NCBI RefSeq assembly: GCF_057098645.1
Contig: NZ_CM169472.1
Length of the DNA stretch: 64,000 bases
Reading direction: 5' to 3' (one strand)
Position 1 is the first letter of the stretch; every line of letters begins with the position of its first letter. Positions 1-37,099 of the stretch are shown here, piece after piece. The position numbers were made by a program, and so were the translations under genes. The notes beneath the pieces are model-generated. The model made no database searches, was not told where the DNA came from, and worked only from the letters and a program-made list of their open reading frames with translations.

Positions 1-168
1 CTCCAAATCAGCGTGTTAGTCCACTTTGGTGAAAGATGAGATTTATTTGTCGGCTGGCCTTGAGTTTAGCGGGGTATGTCAGTACTATAACGCGTCATTT
101 TTCAGCCGACCTTTAACACGTTCCTTGCCTCCCCGGGATTCGGCTGACCCAGACAGGAGGCTGAATAA

Positions 169-582
<414 letters not shown>

Positions 583-588
583 TTTCTG

Positions 589-1135
<547 letters not shown>

Positions 1136-1164
1136 TCGGTCACGGTCCATTAATACGACTTTGA

Positions 1165-1626
<462 letters not shown>

Positions 1627-1645
1627 TTCGTTATTCAACGAGACG

Positions 1646-1680
1646 TAAAAACGCCGACCACTGGTCGGCGTTTTGCTTTC
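1646..1680. terminator. bidirectional intrinsic terminator between convergent rplI and yjfZ
   Basis: GC stem cgccgacc/gtcggcg with 4-nt loop followed by T-run. Confidence 0.6.
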
Positions 1681-1696
1681 TATTTTTCGTCAGGTA

Positions 1697-2491
1697 TTAG
1701 TTTCGCAAGTAGATCCATTCACCATTCTCTTGTGTCCATAAGTCAGGATGGTTTGCTGGCGTTAGATACATACGAGCGCAACTGATGTCTCGCTCCTGCG
1801 GCACTCGCTCGAAACCCAAACCCGAGTAGATTGCGGCTGAACTTGATAAGGAACGCAGACCAATTTTCAAATCATGGGGTAAATCAGAATACGCGTTTAG
1901 CAATGCAGCAATGATGAATCCGAGGGCATTAGAAACGCCTGTAACAGTGCGAAGTTGGTCGATATAAAGATCGATTGTTGGTAGTTCAGATGACCAGCAA
2001 TTAGGCATTTGGGCAGGAAGGGTTACAACGTATCCTATCGTTTGGCCGGTATAGTCTGGAGTACCATAACCAGGTCCCAAAACCACTTCGTGTATTGTGT
2101 ATTTACTGTTGGGTTCGAAGGATTCGACATCTTGCAATAAATATTTCAGTTCTGCGGTTAACCTCGCACCCGCGTAAGCTTTATTGTATTTCTGGGCGTG
2201 AATATTATCTAATGTAGCTTCATGGTTCCATCCAAAAGAATTATCACCATTCATTGTTACTCCATCGTAAGCATTACACTTCTTTGCTAACTTATTGAAT
2301 GCTTGCCAGTCTGAGAGATCTAGTTTGTGGATCTCAACAGTACGTCTGCCATCGCAATTATGATCTCTTCCACGATTTGACAGTAATGTAGCGCGTGCGT
2401 ATTGATGAAATTTTAGTTTTGCTGGTTTGTCGGTGGACGAAAAACGAGGTAAATATGCGGGGAATGAATAAATAGTTGTTGGTAATGTCAT
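1697..2491 (-). CDS. yjfZ: uncharacterized protein YjfZ (DUF2686)
   Basis: 264-aa ORF, AT-rich, matches remembered YjfZ length and position after rplI. Confidence 0.82.
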   Translation of the reverse strand: MTLPTTIYSFPAYLPRFSSTDKPAKLKFHQYARATLLSNRGRDHNCDGRRTVEIHKLDLSDWQAFNKLAKKCNAYDGVTMNGDNSFGWNHEATLDNIHAQKYNKAYAGARLTAELKYLLQDVESFEPNSKYTIHEVVLGPGYGTPDYTGQTIGYVVTLPAQMPNCWSSELPTIDLYIDQLRTVTGVSNALGFIIAALLNAYSDLPHDLKIGLRSLSSSAAIYSGLGFERVPQERDISCARMYLTPANHPDLWTQENGEWIYLRN

Positions 2492-2838
2492 TTTATTGTT
2501 GCCTGTTTAATATTTTTACAAATATCGCAGTTGAATGTTCAAAGAAAAAGAATTGATATTAATAAAAATAAGTTTGTTTTCTGAAGTAGTGAAAATAGCG
2601 GATGGTGAAAGATATTAATATCAAAAATCGCTCATTGTGGATATAACGATGCAGCAGGGGAGAAAATGACTTCCACGCCTTACACCGTACATTCTTGTTG
2701 TGCGGTATGTAATTATTCTACGCTGTCGGTATTGGTGTATTCGTTAATCAGCAGGTTAACCAGCCACAAAAAGCCATTGAGAAAATTATTGATTTTACAT
2801 GGAATTATTATATTGCCAATCCTTGTTTTTTAAAAATT

Positions 2839-3057
2839 GTGCATAGTGAAAATCAAAGTAAAGGTGTGCATTATGCAAAATCACAGCGTCTCTTAGAAAT
2901 TACCCATGCGCACTTGCAGTTAATGGAATCCTTATTGGATGAAGGGAAGAAACACAATATTTTTAAGCCAGATATCGACCCATTTCAGGTGAATATTAAT
3001 ATTGCTGCGCTTGGGGGATATTATTTGATCAACCAGCATACGCTTGGCCTGGTTTAT
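2839..3057 (+). pseudogene. ytfA: ytfA 5' segment (TetR-like C-terminal-domain fragment) interrupted by IS200/IS605 element
   Basis: ORF starts with GTG at 2839; reading frame runs into IS left end; joining 2839..3057 to 4802..4909 restores an uninterrupted 108-codon ORF. Confidence 0.6.
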
Positions 3058-3114
3058 CCGGTGCGCCGTAAAACCCCGTCCTTCAGGGCGGGGATATACG
3101 GCGCGGTTTTCCAC

Positions 3115-3527
3115 CTAACCAGGTGTTTGCTGTTGTTCAATGTATTGACGGATGGCGGATATTGGCGCACCTCCGCAGCTACTGGCAAAATAGCCAGGAC
3201 TCCACAAAACGCCTTTGTAGTAATACCTGACTGCAATATCTGGTCGATCTCGTCGCAGTAACCTACCCGATACGCCTTTGAGGCTGTTTACCAGACTGGA
3301 TATCGCCAGTTTGGGAGGATAGTTAATTAACAAACGTGATCTGGTTCGCCATCCATTTCAACCAGTTCAGCTTCAAAATCAGCACATACCTTTGAAAAGT
3401 AAGTGCGTAGTTTTTCTGTCGCGTCATGGTCAAAAATCTGGCGTCGGTATCTGGTGACAAAGACCAGGTGAACATGCATCAGGAAAACACAATGCCTTCC
3501 ACGCCGGATATCGGTTTCTTTTTTCAC
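3115..3527 (-). pseudogene. tnpA: IS200/IS605 Y1 (HuH) transposase TnpA, frameshifted
   Basis: N-terminal frame (3327..3527) has HVHLVFVTRYRR and ends at EPDHV-stop; C-terminal frame (3115..3333) continues LINYPPKLAISS...LWSPGYF...IRQYIEQQ; frames offset by one nucleotide inside the HuH motif. Confidence 0.75.
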
Positions 3528-3549
3528 AGACCAAAATATAATTTGACCC

Positions 3550-4758
3550 GTGAAACGACTACAGGCATTTAAATTCCAGTTAAGACCCGGTGGTCAACAG
3601 GAGCGTGAAATGAGGCGCTTCGCAGGCGCATGTCGTTTCGTTTTCAATCGTGCTCTGGCGCTTCAGAATGAGAATCATGAGGCCGGTAATAAATACATCC
3701 CTTACGGGAAAATGGCTTCCTGGCTGGTTGAGTGGAAAAATGCCACTGAAACGCAATGGCTTAAAGATGCCCCGTCACAGCCATTGCAACAGTCACTGAA
3801 AGACCTTGAGCGGGCTTACAAAAACTTCTTCCGGAAGCGGGCTGCTTTTCCCCGATTCAAAAAGCGGGGACAGAATGATGCATTCCGCTACCCGCAGGGC
3901 GTTAAGCTCGATCAGGAAAACAGCCGTATTTTTCTGCCGAAACTTGGCTGGATGCGCTACCGGAATAGCCGTCAGGTCACGGGTGTTGTGAAAAATGTCA
4001 CTGTCAGCCAGTCCTGCGGTAAGTGGTACATCAGTATTCAGACTGAAAATGAAGTATCAACTCCGGTTCACCCTTCAGCATTAATGGTCGGACTGGATGC
4101 TGGCGTGGCTAAACTCGCCACGCTGTCAGATGGCACAGTCTTTGGGCCTGTAAACAGTTTTCAGAAAAACCAGAAGACGCTGGCGAGACTTCAGCGACAG
4201 TTAAGCCGCAAGGTCAAATTCAGCAACAACTGGCAGAAGCAGAAACGCAAAATACAGCGACTGCATTCCCGTATCGCAAATATCCGCAGGGACTACCTTC
4301 ATAAAGTCACAACGACCGTCAGCAAAAACCACGCAATGATAGTCATTGAGGATTTGAAGGTCAGCAACATGTCAAAGTCAGCAGCGGGTACGGTCAGCCA
4401 GCCGGGGCGCAATGTCCGGGCAAAATCAGGTTTAAACCGTTCGATACTGGATCAGGGCTGGTATGAAATGCGCCGCCAGCTTGAGTACAAGCAGCTCTGG
4501 CGTGGCGGTCAGGTGCTTGCTGTTCCGCCAGCGTACACAAGCCAGCGTTGCGCGTGCTGTGGTCATACAGCGAAAGAAAATCGCCTGTCACAAAGTAAAT
4601 TCAGATGCCAGGCATGTGGATATACAGCGAACGCTGATGTAAATGGCGCTCGTAACATTTTAGCGGCGGGGCACGCCGTTCTTGCCTGTGGAGAGATGGT
4701 GCAGTCAGGCCGCCCGTTGAAGCAGGAACCCACCGAAATGATTCAGGCGACAGCCTGA
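3550..4758 (+). CDS. tnpB: IS200/IS605 accessory protein TnpB (RuvC-like RNA-guided endonuclease)
   Basis: 402-aa ORF (GTG start); RuvC-I GLDAG (D183), RuvC-II IVIEDL (E267), zinc finger CACCGH...CQACG, Ruv[13 protein letters not shown] (D363) all present. Confidence 0.9.
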
Positions 4759-4817
4759 ACGTAGCAGGGATCCACGTCCTTCAGGGCGTGGAGGATGTCA
4801 ACACATCAGTATGGTTT
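4650..4817 (+). ncRNA. predicted TnpB omega-RNA (right-end element RNA): scaffold overlapping tnpB 3' end and RE hairpin, plus about 16-nt guide from the right flank
   Basis: Inference from family architecture: intact tnpB, RE hairpin 4772..4791, IS end at about 4801; guide would be 4802..4817 (cacatcagtatggttt). 5' boundary is a guess. Confidence 0.35.
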
Positions 4818-4909
4818 CACCCCAGGCACTGGAAGCCAGACGTAAGGTCATCAAAGAGACAATCCTTAGCTGGCTTTTGGTTGACCCGTCATCTACCGCG
4901 CACGAATAA
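4802..4909 (+). pseudogene. ytfA: ytfA 3' segment displaced by the IS insertion
   Basis: 35 codons then TAA at 4907..4909, in frame with 2839..3057 once the IS is removed. Confidence 0.45.
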
Positions 4910-5531
4910 AACTGCCATCCGGCTGGCGGGTGAACAGGACCTGTTGATTATTCCCCGTATCAATGGTTAAGCCCGTCACCACGCCGCTGGCGTTCTGGCG
5001 GATTTTCACCATCTGCCCGTTTTGCAAATTACTCAGCGGCTTACCCGCGCCTTCTACCTGCGCCATTGCATAGACATCGGTAGCGGGCAGTCCGTGGTCG
5101 CGGAACAGCTGCGCCATCGTTTTACCGGGTTCGACACGGTAAGAGCGCCATTGATTATCAATTCCGCTATCTGGCTGGAATGGTTGTGTTTGGGTAGTTT
5201 GCGGCTGCTCTTCTGGCTGGCCTTCCTGTATAGGTTCTGGAGCGACCGGAGCCACCTGATCAGGATCATTTTGTGGTGTGACTAATTGCGCCCGCAGCTG
5301 TTCTTCTGTCGGCGGTTGTGATTGTGACTGAATATCTAACTGCGCTTCACGCGTCACCACCGGCGCGTTGGGCGTATCATCAGATGGAAGCAGAAATCCG
5401 ACCACCAATACAATGGCGGCAATAATGATCCCCCGACGATGCATCGGCGGCAGCGGGTCCATGAAGCGAAAATTGTCCGGCGCGTGCCAGACTTTCTCCA
5501 GGGTTGGTTTTAGTTCAAAGCGCCCGGGCAT
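4893..5531 (-). CDS. ytfB: cell-division-associated OapA-domain protein YtfB
   Basis: ORF 4893..5567; start placed at the internal Met giving 212 aa; Pro/Gln-rich linker and C-terminal OapA/LysM-like region. Confidence 0.82.
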
Positions 5532-19127: not shown

Positions 19128-24679
<5,552 letters not shown>

Positions 24680-24681
24680 CA

Positions 24682-25023
24682 ATGCGAATATTTGTCTACG
24701 GCAGTTTACGCCACAAACAAGGCAACAGTCACTGGATGACCAATGCCCAGTTACTGGGCGATTTCAGTATCGATAACTACCAGTTGTATAGCCTGGGCCA
24801 CTATCCAGGCGCAGTTCCGGGGAACGGAACAGTACACGGTGAAGTTTATCGTATTGACAACGCCACGCTGGCCGAACTTGATGCCTTGCGCACCAGGGGC
24901 GGTGAATACGCGCGCCAGTTGATTCAGACGCCGTACGGGAGTGCATGGATGTACGTTTATCAACGACCCGTCGATGGATTAAAGCTAATTGAAAGCGGCG
25001 ACTGGTTAGACAGGGATAAGTAA
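24682..25023 (+). CDS. ytfP: gamma-glutamylcyclotransferase-family protein YtfP
   Basis: 113-aa ORF MRIFVYGSLR (AIG2-like fold motif). Confidence 0.88.
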   Translation: MRIFVYGSLRHKQGNSHWMTNAQLLGDFSIDNYQLYSLGHYPGAVPGNGTVHGEVYRIDNATLAELDALRTRGGEYARQLIQTPYGSAWMYVYQRPVDGLKLIESGDWLDRDK

Positions 25024-25033
25024 TAATAAAAGC

Positions 25034-25062
25034 ACGCCACCTTCGGGTGGCGTTGTTTTTTG
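25034..25062 (+). terminator. intrinsic terminator after ytfP (end of tamAB-ytfP operon)
   Basis: cgccacc-ttcg-ggtggcg hairpin followed by ttgtttttt. Confidence 0.7.
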
Positions 25063-25203
25063 CGAGACGACTCGCATTCTGTTTTGTAATTCCCTCACCT
25101 TTTGCTTTTCTCTCCGAGCCGCTTTCCATATCTATTAACGCATAAAAAACTCTGCTGGCATTCACAAATGCGCAGGGGTAAAACGTTTCCTGTAGCACCG
25201 TGA

Positions 25204-25220
25204 GTTATACTTTGTATAAC
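25204..25220. promoter_or_regulatory. inverted repeat operator in chpS promoter
   Basis: gttatac-ttt-gtataac palindrome just upstream of the chpS RBS (ggagg). Confidence 0.4.
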
Positions 25221-25234
25221 TTAAGGAGGTGCAG

Positions 25235-25486
25235 ATGCGTATTACCATAAAAAGATGGGGGAACAGTGCAGGTATGGTCATTCCCAATATCGTAATGAAA
25301 GAACTTAACTTACAGCCGGGGCAGAGCGTGGAAGCGCAGGTGAGCAACAACCAACTGATTCTGACACCCATCTCCAGGCGCTACTCGCTTGATGAACTGC
25401 TGGCACAGTGTGACATGAACGCCGCGGAACTTAGCGAGCAGGATGTCTGGGGTAAATCCACCCCTGCGGGTGACGAAATATGGTAA
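25235..25486 (+). CDS. chpS: antitoxin ChpS (MazE-like, AbrB/SpoVT fold)
   Basis: 83 aa from MRITIKRWGNSAGMVIP; stop overlaps chpB start. Confidence 0.9.
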   Translation: MRITIKRWGNSAGMVIPNIVMKELNLQPGQSVEAQVSNNQLILTPISRRYSLDELLAQCDMNAAELSEQDVWGKSTPAGDEIW

Positions 25487-25830
25487 AGAAAAGTGAATTT
25501 GAACGGGGAGACATTGTGCTGGTTGGCTTTGATCCAGCAAGCGGCCATGAACAGCAAGGTGCTGGTCGACCTGCGCTTGTGCTCTCCGTTCAAGCCTTTA
25601 ATCAACTGGGAATGACGCTGGTGGCCCCCATTACGCAGGGCGGAAATTTTGCCCGTTATGCCGGATTTAGCGTTCCTTTACATTGCGAAGAAGGCGATGT
25701 GCACGGCGTGGTGCTGGTTAATCAGGTGCGGATGATGGATCTACGCGCCCGGCTGGCAAAGCGTATTGGTCTGGCTGCGGATGAGGTGGTGGAAGAGGCG
25801 TTATTACGCTTGCAGGCGGTGGTGGAATAA
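25480..25830 (+). CDS. chpB: toxin ChpB (MazF-family mRNA interferase)
   Basis: 116-aa PemK/MazF-like ORF MVKKSEFERGDIVLVGFDP. Confidence 0.92.
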   Translation: MVKKSEFERGDIVLVGFDPASGHEQQGAGRPALVLSVQAFNQLGMTLVAPITQGGNFARYAGFSVPLHCEEGDVHGVVLVNQVRMMDLRARLAKRIGLAADEVVEEALLRLQAVVE

Positions 25831-25909
25831 GGTGTGTTTATTTATCGCGGGCATAAAAAAACCCTTACTAACCGAAGCCCGGCGTTCAGGGTTATTGCGC
25901 TATAAGAAC

Positions 25910-26440
25910 TTATTTATTCTTGGCGCGCTCGAAGGAGGCAACGATTTCAGCTTTAGCGGCTTCTGCGTTTTCCCAACCTTCAACTTTCACCCACTTGCCT
26001 TTTTCGAGGTCTTTGTAGTGCTCGAAGAAGTGAGCGATCTGCGCTTTCAGCAGCTCTGGTAGATCGTTAACGTCTTTAATGTGATCGTATTCTTTGCTCA
26101 GCTTGCTGTGCGGAACCGCAACCAGTTTCGCATCTTCACCGGCTTCGTCGGTCATTTTCAGAACGCCAACCGGACGGCAACGGATCACAGAACCCGGCTG
26201 CAGCGGGTACGGAGTCGGGACCAGTACGTCAACTGGGTCACCGTCCAGAGACAGGGTGTGGTTGATGTAACCGTAGTTGCACGGATAGAACATCGCGGTG
26301 GACATGAAGCGGTCAACGAACAGTGCGCCGCTCTCTTTGTCGATTTCGTATTTGATCGGATCTGCGTTAGCCGGGATCTCAATAACAACGTAGATGTCTT
26401 CCGGCAGATCTTTACCCGCAGGGACGTTGAGTAAGCTCAT
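25910..26440 (-). CDS. ppa: inorganic pyrophosphatase
   Basis: 176-aa [26 protein letters not shown]. Confidence 0.96.
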
Positions 26441-26749
26441 GTCTGTTTCCTTTAAAAATATGTGGCAAACAAGTGCCGAGTATTATAGCCAACTCGCGCC
26501 GAATGTCTTCGCTTGTTTTCGTCTTCATTTTCCTTTTTCACCAGTTTTAAGACGGTATACAGAGCAGGAAAATCCATAACTGTAGCCGCATTTTTCATAG
26601 TGAGATGAAAGCGATTACAAACTTGTGATTAACGTTTTATTTACTTTTTTGAAGTGTGATGTAACGCAATCCGTTACATAACGAATTGTCTATAGTTTTT
26701 TCGCGAACATCTTTTCACCAATAATAATTACCCCGACGAGGACAACCCT

Positions 26750-36859: not shown

Positions 36860-37099
36860 ATGGCCACACTTAACGTCCGCCTGGATGACAAACTGAAAAA
36901 TGAGGCTTATGCGGTGCTGGAAAAATTAAATATCACGCCTACTGAAGCAGTGCGGCTGCTGTTTCAGTACGTTGCGGAAAATGGACGAATGCCGGTAAAA
37001 ACGCTCACTGTCAGTGATAGTGAAGAAGCCTTGTTACGCACTGTCAGGGAACGACTGGCCAACCCACAAGAGACCATTAAGGTCCGGCTGGATGAGTGA
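36860..37099 (+). CDS. RelB/DinJ-family (ribbon-helix-helix) antitoxin-like protein, orphan
   Basis: 79-aa ORF MATLNVRLDDKLKNEAYAVLEKLNITPTEAVRLL resembling DinJ N-terminus; no toxin ORF follows (nrdG stop abuts at 37100). Confidence 0.6.
   Translation: MATLNVRLDDKLKNEAYAVLEKLNITPTEAVRLLFQYVAENGRMPVKTLTVSDSEEALLRTVRERLANPQETIKVRLDE

What the first reader, a model, noticed from the sequence alone, without database searches (positions are those of the whole stretch)
25204..25830. chpSB (MazEF-type) toxin-antitoxin pair with a palindromic operator
chpS (83 aa) and chpB (116 aa, MazF/PemK family) overlap by 7 nt (ATGgTAA). A gttatac-ttt-gtataac inverted repeat sits immediately upstream of the RBS, a likely autoregulation site. 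This is a known E. coli chromosomal TA module, but together with the DinJ-like orphan and TnpB it marks the window as carrying several selfish or defence-type modules.
Basis: established knowledge. Interest (0 to 1): 0.25.

Follow-up and report, generated by a model that had tools for sequence, protein, structure and literature searches.

The report
Known chpSB toxin-antitoxin operon
This is the long-known chpS-chpB toxin-antitoxin gene pair of E. coli, intact and in its usual chromosomal place; the small palindrome in front of it matches the experimentally proven operator of its plasmid relative parD/pem, so the finding is correct but ordinary.

Summary
chpS (25235-25486, 83 aa) and chpB (25480-25830, 116 aa) overlap by ATGGTAA. 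A perfect inverted repeat AGTTATAC-ttt-GTATAACT (25203-25221) sits 2 nt upstream of the AAGGAGG ribosome-binding site. Both proteins match NCBI's ChpS and ChpB equivalog models end to end. The window is 100% identical to E. coli O145:H28 chromosomes, where these genes are annotated at the same coordinates between ytfP and ppa, as in K-12. chpB is undamaged: the catalytic Arg30 and Thr52 are kept, and the only difference from K-12 is H89R at a variable position.

The operator reading is supported but not proven. All 14 arm positions are identical in Enterobacter asburiae, although the intergenic region is only 58% identical. The element also matches parD/pem region I (GTTATATTTAAATATAAC), which was footprinted by the antitoxin Kis and overlaps the -10, in both sequence and position. 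The spacing is 1 bp shorter and no second (region II) site was found. No ChpS-DNA binding data or mapped start site could be retrieved.

Side observations:
- A CRP-S-like site lies at 25061-25076.
- In long transcripts the palindrome could fold into a hairpin that hides the ribosome-binding site.
- 43% of complete E. coli genomes carry an unannotated decayed chpB relic instead of the operon.

Already known; low interest.

The parts
25034..25053 (+). ytfP intrinsic terminator (ACGCCACC-ttcg-GGTGGCGT followed by a T-run). It separates chpSB from upstream transcription.
   Evidence: Conserved in all Escherichia loci and in Enterobacter.
25061..25076 (.). CRP-S-like site TGCGA-GACGAC-TCGCA, a candidate Sxy/CRP-dependent activator site for a distal chpSB promoter (inferred).
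   Evidence: The only exact match in the window, 0.16 expected. Half-sites are retained while the 6-nt spacer varies among L003-L007. A review reports that sxy overexpression induces chpSB. CRP-S sites act from about -62 to -100.
25178..25184 (+). GTAAAAC, a 1-mismatch copy of the right half-site GTATAAC, 26 nt upstream of the palindrome. Possible auxiliary half-site; low confidence.
   Evidence: The same position in Enterobacter holds GTAGAAC. The GTA.AAC columns are invariant in an otherwise roughly 50% identical stretch. Not significant on its own.
25190..25234 (+). Extended quasi-palindrome (21-nt arms, 76% complementary) that includes the Shine-Dalgarno sequence. If transcribed it folds into a hairpin.
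   Evidence: RNA fold -19.8 kcal/mol, z = -4.0. Converted to a perfect 21-nt inverted repeat in strain O111:H2 08-3342.
25203..25221 (.). Core perfect palindrome AGTTATAC-ttt-GTATAACT, the putative ChpS (ChpS-ChpB) operator.
   Evidence: Counterpart of parD region I GTTATATTTAAATATAAC.
25206..25211 (+). Putative -10 hexamer TATACT inside the left half of the palindrome (inferred).
   Evidence: Aligns with the parD -10 TATATT, which lies in the left half of region I. Conserved in Enterobacter. No consensus -35; the simple promoter scan found nothing on this strand.
25223..25229 (+). Shine-Dalgarno sequence AAGGAGG of chpS, 5 nt before the ATG.
   Evidence: GGAGG is invariant in all six enterobacterial loci.
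25235..25486 (+). chpS (chpBI), an 83-aa antitoxin with an N-terminal AbrB/MazE-type DNA-binding domain and a C-terminal toxin-binding tail.
   Evidence: Pfam PF04014, 1.3e-11, residues 5-49. NCBIfam ChpS equivalog 196.5 bits, cut-off 101, positions 1-83 of 83. 37% identical to PemI/Kis. Related to MazE structures. RefSeq annotation.
25480..25486 (+). ATGGTAA start/stop overlap, suggesting translational coupling of chpB to chpS.
   Evidence: The 7-nt overlap is conserved in Escherichia, Enterobacter, Massilia and Burkholderia ChpB-family loci.
25480..25830 (+). chpB (chpBK), a 116-aa MazF/Kid-family endoribonuclease toxin.
   Evidence: Pfam PF02452, 7.8e-26. NCBIfam ChpB equivalog 228.9 bits, cut-off 129, positions 1-116 of 116. 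Best solved relative is Kid, 1.8e-21. Arg30 and Thr52 align with MazF R29 and T52. H89R relative to K-12.
25857..25896 (-). Hairpin followed by a T-run on the minus strand (AAAAACCCT ... AGGGTTATT on the plus strand). This is the ppa terminator and the right-hand limit of the module.
   Evidence: Retained unchanged in genomes that lack chpSB.

Best explanation
The region is the canonical type II toxin-antitoxin operon chpSB (chpBI-chpBK) of E. coli, intact and at its usual site between ytfP and ppa.

**Established for this family, from the literature:** ChpB is a ribosome-independent MazF/Kid-type endoribonuclease. It cuts single-stranded RNA at ACY (Y = U, A or G) and is a comparatively weak toxin. 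ChpS neutralises it by direct binding.

**Shown here:** both genes are full length, match the curated ChpS and ChpB models, keep the catalytic Arg/Thr pair, and are arranged antitoxin-first with an ATGGTAA overlap that favours coupled translation.

**Inferred:** the palindrome AGTTATAC-ttt-GTATAACT (25203-25221) is the operator. A ChpS dimer, probably strengthened by ChpB as in Kid-Kis, binds it through the N-terminal AbrB-type domain. This covers the -10 hexamer TATACT (25206-25211) in its left half and represses the operon. When ChpS is lost, for example by proteolysis under stress, the promoter is derepressed and ChpB is freed.

**Further inference:** a second, distal input may come from a CRP-S-like site (25061-25076) that would make the operon Sxy/CRP-inducible.

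**My confidence:** identity about 0.98; operator function of the palindrome about 0.75; the exact -10 and start site about 0.5.
For: **Identity**
- family and equivalog matches.
- 100% identity to O145:H28 chromosomes, same annotation, and K-12 synteny.

**Integrity**
- invariant R30, with T52 aligned to MazF R29/T52.

**Operator**
- 79 of 5000 shuffles reach the observed arm length.
- arms 14/14 identical between E. coli and Enterobacter, against 58% for the intergenic region and 21% for the adjacent flank.
- the 66-nt operator/SD region is 100% identical in 2818 of the 3097 E. coli genomes that have the module.
- pemI is preceded by GTTATATTTAAATATAAC-ttttat-GGAGGTG-aagaATG. chpS has GTTATACTTTGTATAAC-ttaa-GGAGGTG-cagATG.
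- (PMC1865072): that parD element, region I, is protected by Kis and Kid-Kis in hydroxyl-radical footprints, and its left half overlaps the -10.
- ChpS is 37% identical to PemI/Kis. ChpB's closest solved relative is Kid.

**Biochemistry of ChpBK**
- (PMC5408214): ACY cleavage, 2',3'-cyclic phosphate products, weak toxin, acidic pI.
- The computed pI here is 5.6, against 10.6 for PemK.

**Sxy induction**
- (PMC11951105, citing Sinha 2009).
Against: - No direct ChpS-DNA binding data and no mapped chpS transcription start could be retrieved. A broad antitoxin review does not discuss ChpS at all.
- The promoter scan found no sigma-70 consensus promoter on the plus strand. The inferred -10 has no recognisable -35 and lacks the TG extension that parD has.
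- Half-site spacing is N5 in chpS and N6 in parD, and no region II-like second palindrome exists. Binding geometry may therefore differ.
- ChpB-family loci in Burkholderia, Massilia and Rheinheimera do not carry this palindrome. They have other upstream repeats, so the motif is specific to the enterobacterial/parD branch.
- An 8-nt inverted repeat is not rare in itself: the window holds 19.
Confidence: 0.85

Rival explanations
1. The palindrome works mainly, or additionally, at the RNA level. In transcripts that start upstream of 25190, for example from a CRP-S/Sxy-dependent distal promoter, the quasi-palindrome folds into a hairpin whose outer stem pairs with the Shine-Dalgarno sequence. This would limit ChpS translation or stabilise the 5' end, while short transcripts from a proximal promoter would lack the left arm and be translated freely.
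For: -: the 25186-25240 RNA folds at -19.8 kcal/mol, z = -4.0, with 0 of 200 shuffles as stable.
- Enterobacter folds at -17.0 kcal/mol (z = -2.9) using a different outer helix (GCCUC/GAGGC) that again pairs the SD, although the left flank is only 21% identical.
- in E. coli E69 a double change (A>C on the left, A>G on the right) creates a C-G pair in the outer stem.
- a CRP-S-like site whose class I geometry would place a start site around 25130-25170, upstream of the hairpin.
- Sxy induces chpSB, and hicAB has a two-promoter arrangement that includes a CRP-S-dependent promoter.
Against: - In parD the start site lies downstream of the -10 inside the palindrome. A homologous chpS start would leave the left arm untranscribed.
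- The E69 hairpin is not better than shuffles (z = -0.7), and neither is the longer 111-nt Enterobacter leader (z = -0.9).
- Any DNA palindrome gives an RNA hairpin for free.
- The evidence rests on three or four related sequences.
- No distal promoter element could be recognised and no start-site data were found.
Confidence: 0.2
2. The inverted repeat has no regulatory role. It is a chance or mutationally generated quasi-palindrome in an AT-rich promoter region, and its conservation reflects only promoter (-10) constraint.
For: -: 19 perfect inverted repeats of this size occur in the window, and the local p-value is only about 0.016.
- the element is visibly prone to template-switch 'correction'. 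One strain has turned it into a perfect 21-nt-arm palindrome, so palindromy can arise without selection.
- distant ChpB-family loci lack it.
Against: - Both arms, not just the half that holds the -10, are 7/7 identical in Enterobacter amid 21-58% identical surroundings.
- The same outer hexamers, GTTATA and TATAAC, flank the footprinted Kis operator in parD at the same distance from the SD.
- The region is 100% identical in 2818 of 3097 E. coli genomes.
Confidence: 0.08
3. The module in this strain is a non-functional or decaying copy, as at the same locus in many other E. coli.
For: -: 2322 of 5426 complete E. coli genomes carry only a decayed chpB relic at this site, so loss is common.
- the window's ChpB differs from K-12 by H89R.
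Against: - Both ORFs are full length, without frameshifts or stops, and score far above the equivalog cut-offs.
- The ChpS protein is identical to K-12's; the nucleotide differences are synonymous (same WP accession).
- R89 is the state seen in all other Escherichia orthologues and in MazF, so K-12's H89 is the odd one out.
- The catalytic R30 and T52 are kept.
Confidence: 0.02

Closest known systems
chpSB (chpBI-chpBK) of E. coli K-12 (b4224-b4225; Masuda et al. 1993)
   Same: Same genes and same locus (tamB-ytfP-chpS-chpB-ppa). The 1759-bp stretch ytfP-ppa (window 24682-26440) is 98.6% identical at the DNA level. The ChpS protein, the palindrome, the SD and the ATGGTAA overlap are all identical.
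   Different: One ChpB residue (R89 here, H89 in K-12) and a few synonymous or intergenic substitutions, for example just downstream of the ytfP stop.
parD (kis-kid) of plasmid R1 = pem (pemI-pemK) of R100
   Same: - Closest characterised paralogue: ChpB-Kid E = 1.8e-21; ChpS-PemI 37% identity.
- Antitoxin-first operon.
- A palindrome with the same outer hexamers (GTTATA ... TATAAC) sits just upstream of a GGAGGTG SD and overlaps the -10. In parD it is the footprinted Kis/Kid-Kis operator region I.
   Different: - parD region I is an 18-bp perfect palindrome (N6 between the hexamers). chpS has 17 bp (N5).
- parD has a second, imperfect site (region II) 33 bp upstream. chpS has none.
- parD has a TG-extended -10; chpS does not.
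- pemI and pemK do not overlap.
- PemK is basic (pI 10.6) and ChpB acidic (pI 5.6).
- Kid's proposed catalytic R73 and D75 (recalled from the literature) align with L79 and N81 in ChpB.
- parD is plasmid-borne; chpSB is chromosomal.
mazEF (chpA) of E. coli
   Same: Same toxin and antitoxin folds. ChpB and MazF are 34% identical in my alignment; 35% in the literature. The catalytic Arg/Thr pair is shared. Autoregulation through an AbrB-type antitoxin is established for mazEF.
   Different: - The mazEF operator is an 'alternating palindrome' of different sequence.
- MazF cuts ACA and is a strong toxin. ChpB cuts ACY and is weak.
hicAB of E. coli (two-promoter, Sxy/CRP-S-responsive TA operon)
   Same: Reported to be induced by Sxy together with chpSB. 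A CRP-S-like site lies upstream of chpSB. This makes it a possible model for a distal inducible promoter plus a proximal autoregulated one.
   Different: Unrelated proteins and opposite gene order. For chpSB neither promoter has been mapped in anything I could read, so the parallel is only a hypothesis.

Membership tests
ChpB toxin (NCBIfam NF007320 equivalog) / PemK-MazF family (Pfam PF02452) | Full-length match above the curated cut-off | tested here: met
   228.9 bits against a cut-off of 129, positions 1-116 of 116. PF02452 scores 90.9 bits against 23.1.
ChpB toxin / MazF family | Catalytic Arg and Thr/Ser of MazF-type RNases (MazF R29 and T52; residue roles recalled from the literature) | tested here: met
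   ChpB R30 is invariant across ChpB, PemK and MazF. T52 aligns with MazF T52 and is Ser in two orthologues. The MazF sequence was verified against PDB entries.
ChpB toxin | ACY-specific, ribosome-independent RNA cleavage and growth inhibition | not testable with these tools
   Known for the K-12 protein. This allele differs by one residue (H89R) at a variable position.
ChpS antitoxin (NCBIfam NF008463 equivalog) / MazE_antitoxin (Pfam PF04014) | Full-length match above the cut-off, and an N-terminal AbrB/SpoVT-type domain | tested here: met
   196.5 bits against a cut-off of 101, positions 1-83 of 83. PF04014 covers residues 5-49, E = 1.3e-11. Relatives among the MazE structures 1mvf and 1ub4.
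Type II toxin-antitoxin operon | Small adjacent co-oriented genes, antitoxin first, with overlapping or abutting reading frames | tested here: met
   7-nt ATGGTAA overlap, conserved in ChpB-family loci of four other genera.
Type II toxin-antitoxin operon | Transcriptional autoregulation by antitoxin binding to an operator in its own promoter | not testable with these tools
   Supported only indirectly: conserved palindrome and homology to the footprinted parD region I. No binding data for ChpS were found.
chpSB locus of E. coli | Chromosomal position between ytfP and ppa | tested here: met
   The same synteny holds in Enterobacter asburiae.
parD/pem-type operator architecture | Perfect palindrome overlapping the -10 (region I), with outer half-sites GTTATA/TATAAC | tested here: met
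   GTTATAC-ttt-GTATAAC against GTTATATTTAAATATAAC, at the same distance from the GGAGGTG SD. The spacing is 1 bp shorter.
parD/pem-type operator architecture | Second, imperfect palindrome (region II) upstream that gives cooperative binding | tested here: not met
   No second palindrome in 25024-25203. Only single 1-mismatch half-site copies at 25178 and 25239.
CRP-S (Sxy-dependent CRP) site | Core TGCGA-N6-TCGCA | tested here: met
   Exact match at 25061-25076, the only one in the window, 0.16 expected. Half-sites are largely kept in five other loci with a variable spacer.
CRP-S (Sxy-dependent CRP) site | Class I position (about -62 to -100) relative to a transcription start, and Sxy-dependent activation | tested here: inconclusive
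   No promoter could be recognised downstream of the site and no start-site data were found. Sxy induction of chpSB is reported only second-hand. The primary paper is not held.

The most novel reading that the evidence does not exclude
chpSB may have a two-tier control like hicAB.

- A proximal promoter would be shut off by ChpS at the parD-type palindrome.
- A distal promoter would be activated by CRP and Sxy through the TGCGA-N6-TCGCA site at 25061-25076.
- The long leader from the distal promoter would contain the whole quasi-palindrome and fold into a hairpin that hides the chpS ribosome-binding site.
- The same 45-bp element would then serve as a DNA operator and as an RNA translational brake. 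This could shift the toxin-to-antitoxin ratio when the competence regulon is induced.
Probability: 0.12. Interest if true: 0.4.

Novelty: already known. Interest (0 to 1): 0.1.

Why it matters
It matters little as a discovery. chpSB has been known since 1993, and this copy is a normal, intact allele.

The analysis adds a concrete, cheaply testable prediction for a poorly studied member of the E. coli toxin-antitoxin set: ChpS should bind AGTTATAC-N3-GTATAACT, the one-base-shorter counterpart of the Kis operator. That would let the question of how AbrB-type antitoxins tolerate a change in half-site spacing be tested on two natural homologues.

It also shows that the presence/absence polymorphism of chpSB in E. 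coli is really intact operon versus one shared, unannotated relic. This is relevant to anyone using chpSB as a marker or counting toxin-antitoxin systems in pangenomes.

Tried and rejected
- **Promoter scan:** the sigma-70 consensus scan of 24950-25950 found no plus-strand promoter. The -10 is therefore inferred only from homology to parD.
- **Transcription start data:** Thomason 2015 is not held. The supplements of SMRT-Cappable-seq, Rend-seq and Cappable-seq hold no chpS/chpB entry. A text search for chpSB plus 'transcription start site' gave nothing relevant.
- **Primary papers not held:** Sinha 2009 for the Sxy regulon and Masuda 1993. Statements from them are second-hand or from memory.
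- **Rfam:** the search of 24600-26600 at E <= 1 gave only a sub-threshold S15-leader hit inside ppa (16.5 bits against a gathering score of 39.5), which I dismissed as chance.
- **Self-targeting bias:** chpB has fewer ChpB cleavage sites (ACD) than chpS, 2.9 against 5.6 per 100 nt. Neither figure departs from dinucleotide shuffles, so composition explains it.
- **Second operator:** no parD region II-like palindrome was found.
- **Plasmid-borne chpSB in E. coli:** rejected. The 'plasmid' records carry the whole chromosomal neighbourhood tamB-ytfP-chpSB-ppa-ytfQ.
- **Foreign-DNA signature:** none. GC is 50.8% for chpS and 53.8% for chpB, against 50.6% for the window.
- **E69-type operator variant:** the search in complete E. 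coli genomes found no match.
- **Strain HH45 'intermediate' relic:** it contains an implausible G/C-homopolymer-rich stretch and looks like a recombinant or an assembly artefact. I did not interpret it further.

Full report
**1. What is in the sequence.** The window between 24682 and 26440 reads tamB-ytfP-chpS-chpB on the plus strand, then ppa on the minus strand.
- chpS runs from ATG 25235 to TAA 25486 (83 aa). chpB runs from ATG 25480 to TAA 25830 (116 aa).
- The two frames share ATGGTAA (25480-25486).
- The perfect arms are 8 nt long (AGTTATAC/GTATAACT, 25203-25221, spacer TTT). The symmetry continues imperfectly to 21-nt arms (25190-25234, 76% complementary), so the right arm contains the Shine-Dalgarno sequence.
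- Every coordinate in the finding is correct.

**2. Identity.**
- Pfam assigns MazE_antitoxin to ChpS residues 5-49 and PemK_toxin to ChpB residues 8-114.
- NCBI's equivalog models for ChpS and ChpB match end to end at about twice their cut-offs. The MazE and MazF models fall far below theirs.
- The DNA is 100% identical to several E. coli O145:H28 chromosomes. RefSeq annotates chpS and chpB there at exactly these positions.
- K-12 has the same arrangement at 98.6% identity over ytfP-ppa.
- The nearest solved structures are Kid for the toxin (E = 1.8e-21) and MazE for the antitoxin.

**3. Integrity of the toxin gene.**
- An alignment of ChpB with orthologues, PemK and MazF shows 14 invariant positions, including R30 (MazF R29). 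T52 aligns with MazF T52.
- The window's ChpB differs from K-12 only by R89 for H89. All other Escherichia orthologues and MazF have R there, and more distant relatives vary.
- ChpS is identical to K-12's (same WP accession).

**4. Is the palindrome meaningful?**
- *Statistics.* It is modest on its own. 79 of 5000 dinucleotide shuffles of the 100 nt upstream of chpS give an equal or longer perfect arm, and the window contains 19 comparable repeats.
- *Conservation.* A scan of one genome per species found ChpB loci in four other Escherichia lineages, in Enterobacter asburiae (78% identity, same synteny), and in Massilia and Rheinheimera. Between E. coli and Enterobacter the ytfP-chpS spacer is 58% identical and the 14 nt left of the repeat 21%. 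All 14 arm positions are identical, and only the central spacer differs (ttt to tat). Within E. coli the 66-nt operator/SD stretch is 100% identical in 2818 of the 3097 genomes that have the module.
- *Homology to a proven operator.* On IncF plasmids pemI is preceded by GTTATATTTAAATATAAC-ttttat-GGAGGTG-aagaATG. This 18-bp element is parD region I. Hydroxyl-radical footprints show it is bound by Kis and by Kid-Kis, and its left half overlaps the -10 (PMC1865072). chpS has GTTATACTTTGTATAAC-ttaa-GGAGGTG-cagATG: the same outer hexamers in the same place, with one base fewer between them.
- *Inferred -10.* By this alignment the chpS -10 would be TATACT (25206-25211).
- *What remains inferred.* I found no ChpS binding data and no mapped start site. 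A simple scan sees no consensus promoter. chpS lacks parD's TG extension and its second site, region II. ChpB-family loci in Burkholderia, Massilia and Rheinheimera carry different upstream repeats.

**5. How it most likely works.**
- *From the literature.* ChpBK cleaves RNA at ACY, leaving 2',3'-cyclic phosphate. It is 35% identical to MazF, only partly inhibits protein synthesis, and is acidic. The pI computed here is 5.6, against 10.6 for PemK.
- *From the anatomy.* ChpS is made first and chpB translation is probably coupled through ATGGTAA. This overlap is conserved in the family, and chpB has only a weak SD of its own.
- *Inferred.* ChpS dimers, assisted by ChpB, occupy the palindrome, block the -10 and keep expression low. 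Loss of ChpS derepresses the operon and frees ChpB.

**6. A rival or additional layer.**
- If transcription can start upstream of 25190, the quasi-palindrome becomes an RNA hairpin (-19.8 kcal/mol, z = -4.0) that pairs the SD.
- Enterobacter keeps SD pairing with a different outer helix (z = -2.9). A divergent E. coli lineage (E69) does not beat shuffles.
- A possible source of such transcripts is the exact TGCGA-N6-TCGCA motif at 25061-25076. It is the only one in the window, with 0.16 expected. Its half-sites persist across genera while the spacer changes.
- CRP-S sites act from class I positions, and a 2025 review cites Sxy-dependent induction of chpSB.
- I rate this two-promoter, dual DNA/RNA reading as possible but weakly supported.

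**7. Population context, noticed on the way.**
- Only 3097 of 5426 complete E. coli genomes hold the operon.
- The others are not empty sites. 2322 genomes share one relic, in which the operator and chpS are deleted from 25197 onward.
- About 124 nt corresponding to chpB codons 7-48 survive at 76% identity, with frameshifts and stops. A second deletion between GGTGG repeats removes the rest up to the last 13 nt.
- The relic is unannotated in RefSeq and is itself up to about 9% diverged among strains.
- Its flanking intergenic sequence resembles that of a cryptic Escherichia lineage that still has intact chpSB.
- Separately, one strain (O111:H2 08-3342) has five clustered substitutions that make the left arm the exact complement of the right. 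This gives 21-nt perfect arms and a -35.4 kcal/mol hairpin, the signature of a quasi-palindrome template-switch event.

**8. Verdict.**
- The finding is accurate and its interpretation is supported. The object is the already known chpSB module, intact and unremarkable.
- Nothing in the evidence suggests a new kind of system.
- The remark about other selfish elements in the window is factually right: IS200/IS605 tnpA-tnpB at 3124-4767 and an orphan RelB/DinJ antitoxin at 36860-37099. It carries no functional implication for chpSB.

Noticed in passing
L001 806-947 (E. coli ATCC 8739), replacing window 25197-25821: The chpSB-negative state in E. coli is a shared, unannotated relic rather than an empty site. 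The operator and chpS are deleted, about 124 nt of chpB (codons 7-48) remain at 76% identity with frameshifts and stops, and a second deletion lies between GGTGG repeats. Counts: 2322 genomes carry the relic and 3097 the intact operon, out of 5426. Relic copies differ from each other by up to about 9%.
   Followed up: partly
L016 261-305 (E. coli O111:H2 08-3342), equivalent to window 25190-25234: Five clustered substitutions turn the imperfect left arm into the exact reverse complement of the right arm, giving 21-nt perfect arms and an RNA hairpin of -35.4 kcal/mol that fully buries the SD. It is the only genome of 3097 in that identity band. This looks like a natural quasi-palindrome template-switch mutation.
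   Followed up: partly
window 25061-25076: TGCGAGACGACTCGCA is an exact CRP-S core (TGCGA-N6-TCGCA), just downstream of the ytfP terminator and about 160 nt upstream of chpS. The half-sites are conserved in other Escherichia and in Enterobacter, with a variable spacer. This fits the reported Sxy induction of chpSB. The terminator scan also flagged it as a weak hairpin.
   Followed up: partly
window 25178-25184 and 25239-25245: GTAAAAC and GTATTAC are single-mismatch copies of the right half-site GTATAAC, 26 nt upstream and 25 nt downstream of the palindrome. The same positions in Enterobacter hold GTAGAAC and a perfect GTATAAC; the latter uses the rare ATA codon for Ile3 of ChpS. They may be auxiliary half-sites, but they are not significant on their own.
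   Followed up: partly
window 25744-25746: ChpB codon 89 is CGC (Arg) here and CAC (His) in K-12. Arg is the state in all other Escherichia orthologues, so the laboratory strain carries the unusual allele.
   Followed up: yes
window 3124-4767: An IS200/IS605 element (frameshifted tnpA on the minus strand, intact 402-aa tnpB/insQ on the plus strand) is inserted in a TetR/AcrR family regulator gene. Fragments of that gene flank it at 2773-3087 and 4811-4918.
   Followed up: no
window 36860-37099: An orphan RelB/DinJ-family antitoxin gene (79 aa) lies between cybC and nrdG. It ends directly against the 3' end of nrdG and has no annotated toxin partner.
   Followed up: no
window 52093-52545: tabA (yjgK, 'toxin-antitoxin biofilm protein') lies in the same window. 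A review states that it is induced when five TA systems, including chpB, are deleted.
   Followed up: no
L015 (pMTY18781-2) and six other E. coli 'plasmid' records: E. coli records classed as plasmids that encode ChpB carry the full chromosomal neighbourhood tamB-ytfP-chpSB-ppa-ytfQ. Some are 0.6-4.9 Mb long. They are likely mislabelled chromosomal segments rather than evidence that chpSB is mobile.
   Followed up: partly
L013, L014 (Burkholderia plasmids) and L008 (Massilia), 90 nt upstream of the antitoxin: Betaproteobacterial ChpB-family operons (58-62% identity, same 83-aa antitoxin and 7-nt overlap) lack the GTTATAC palindrome. They share TCTACAATG(G/T)ATC(T/A)AC next to the SD and an upstream GTAGATAC repeat, which may be a different operator for the same fold. 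In Burkholderia they sit next to a site-specific integrase.
   Followed up: partly
L017 560-700 (E. coli HH45): At the chpSB locus this genome has a G/C-homopolymer-rich stretch followed by a chpB 5' part identical to the intact allele, which then switches to relic sequence. It is annotated as a partial PemK/MazF toxin. It is probably an assembly artefact or a recombinant.
   Followed up: no
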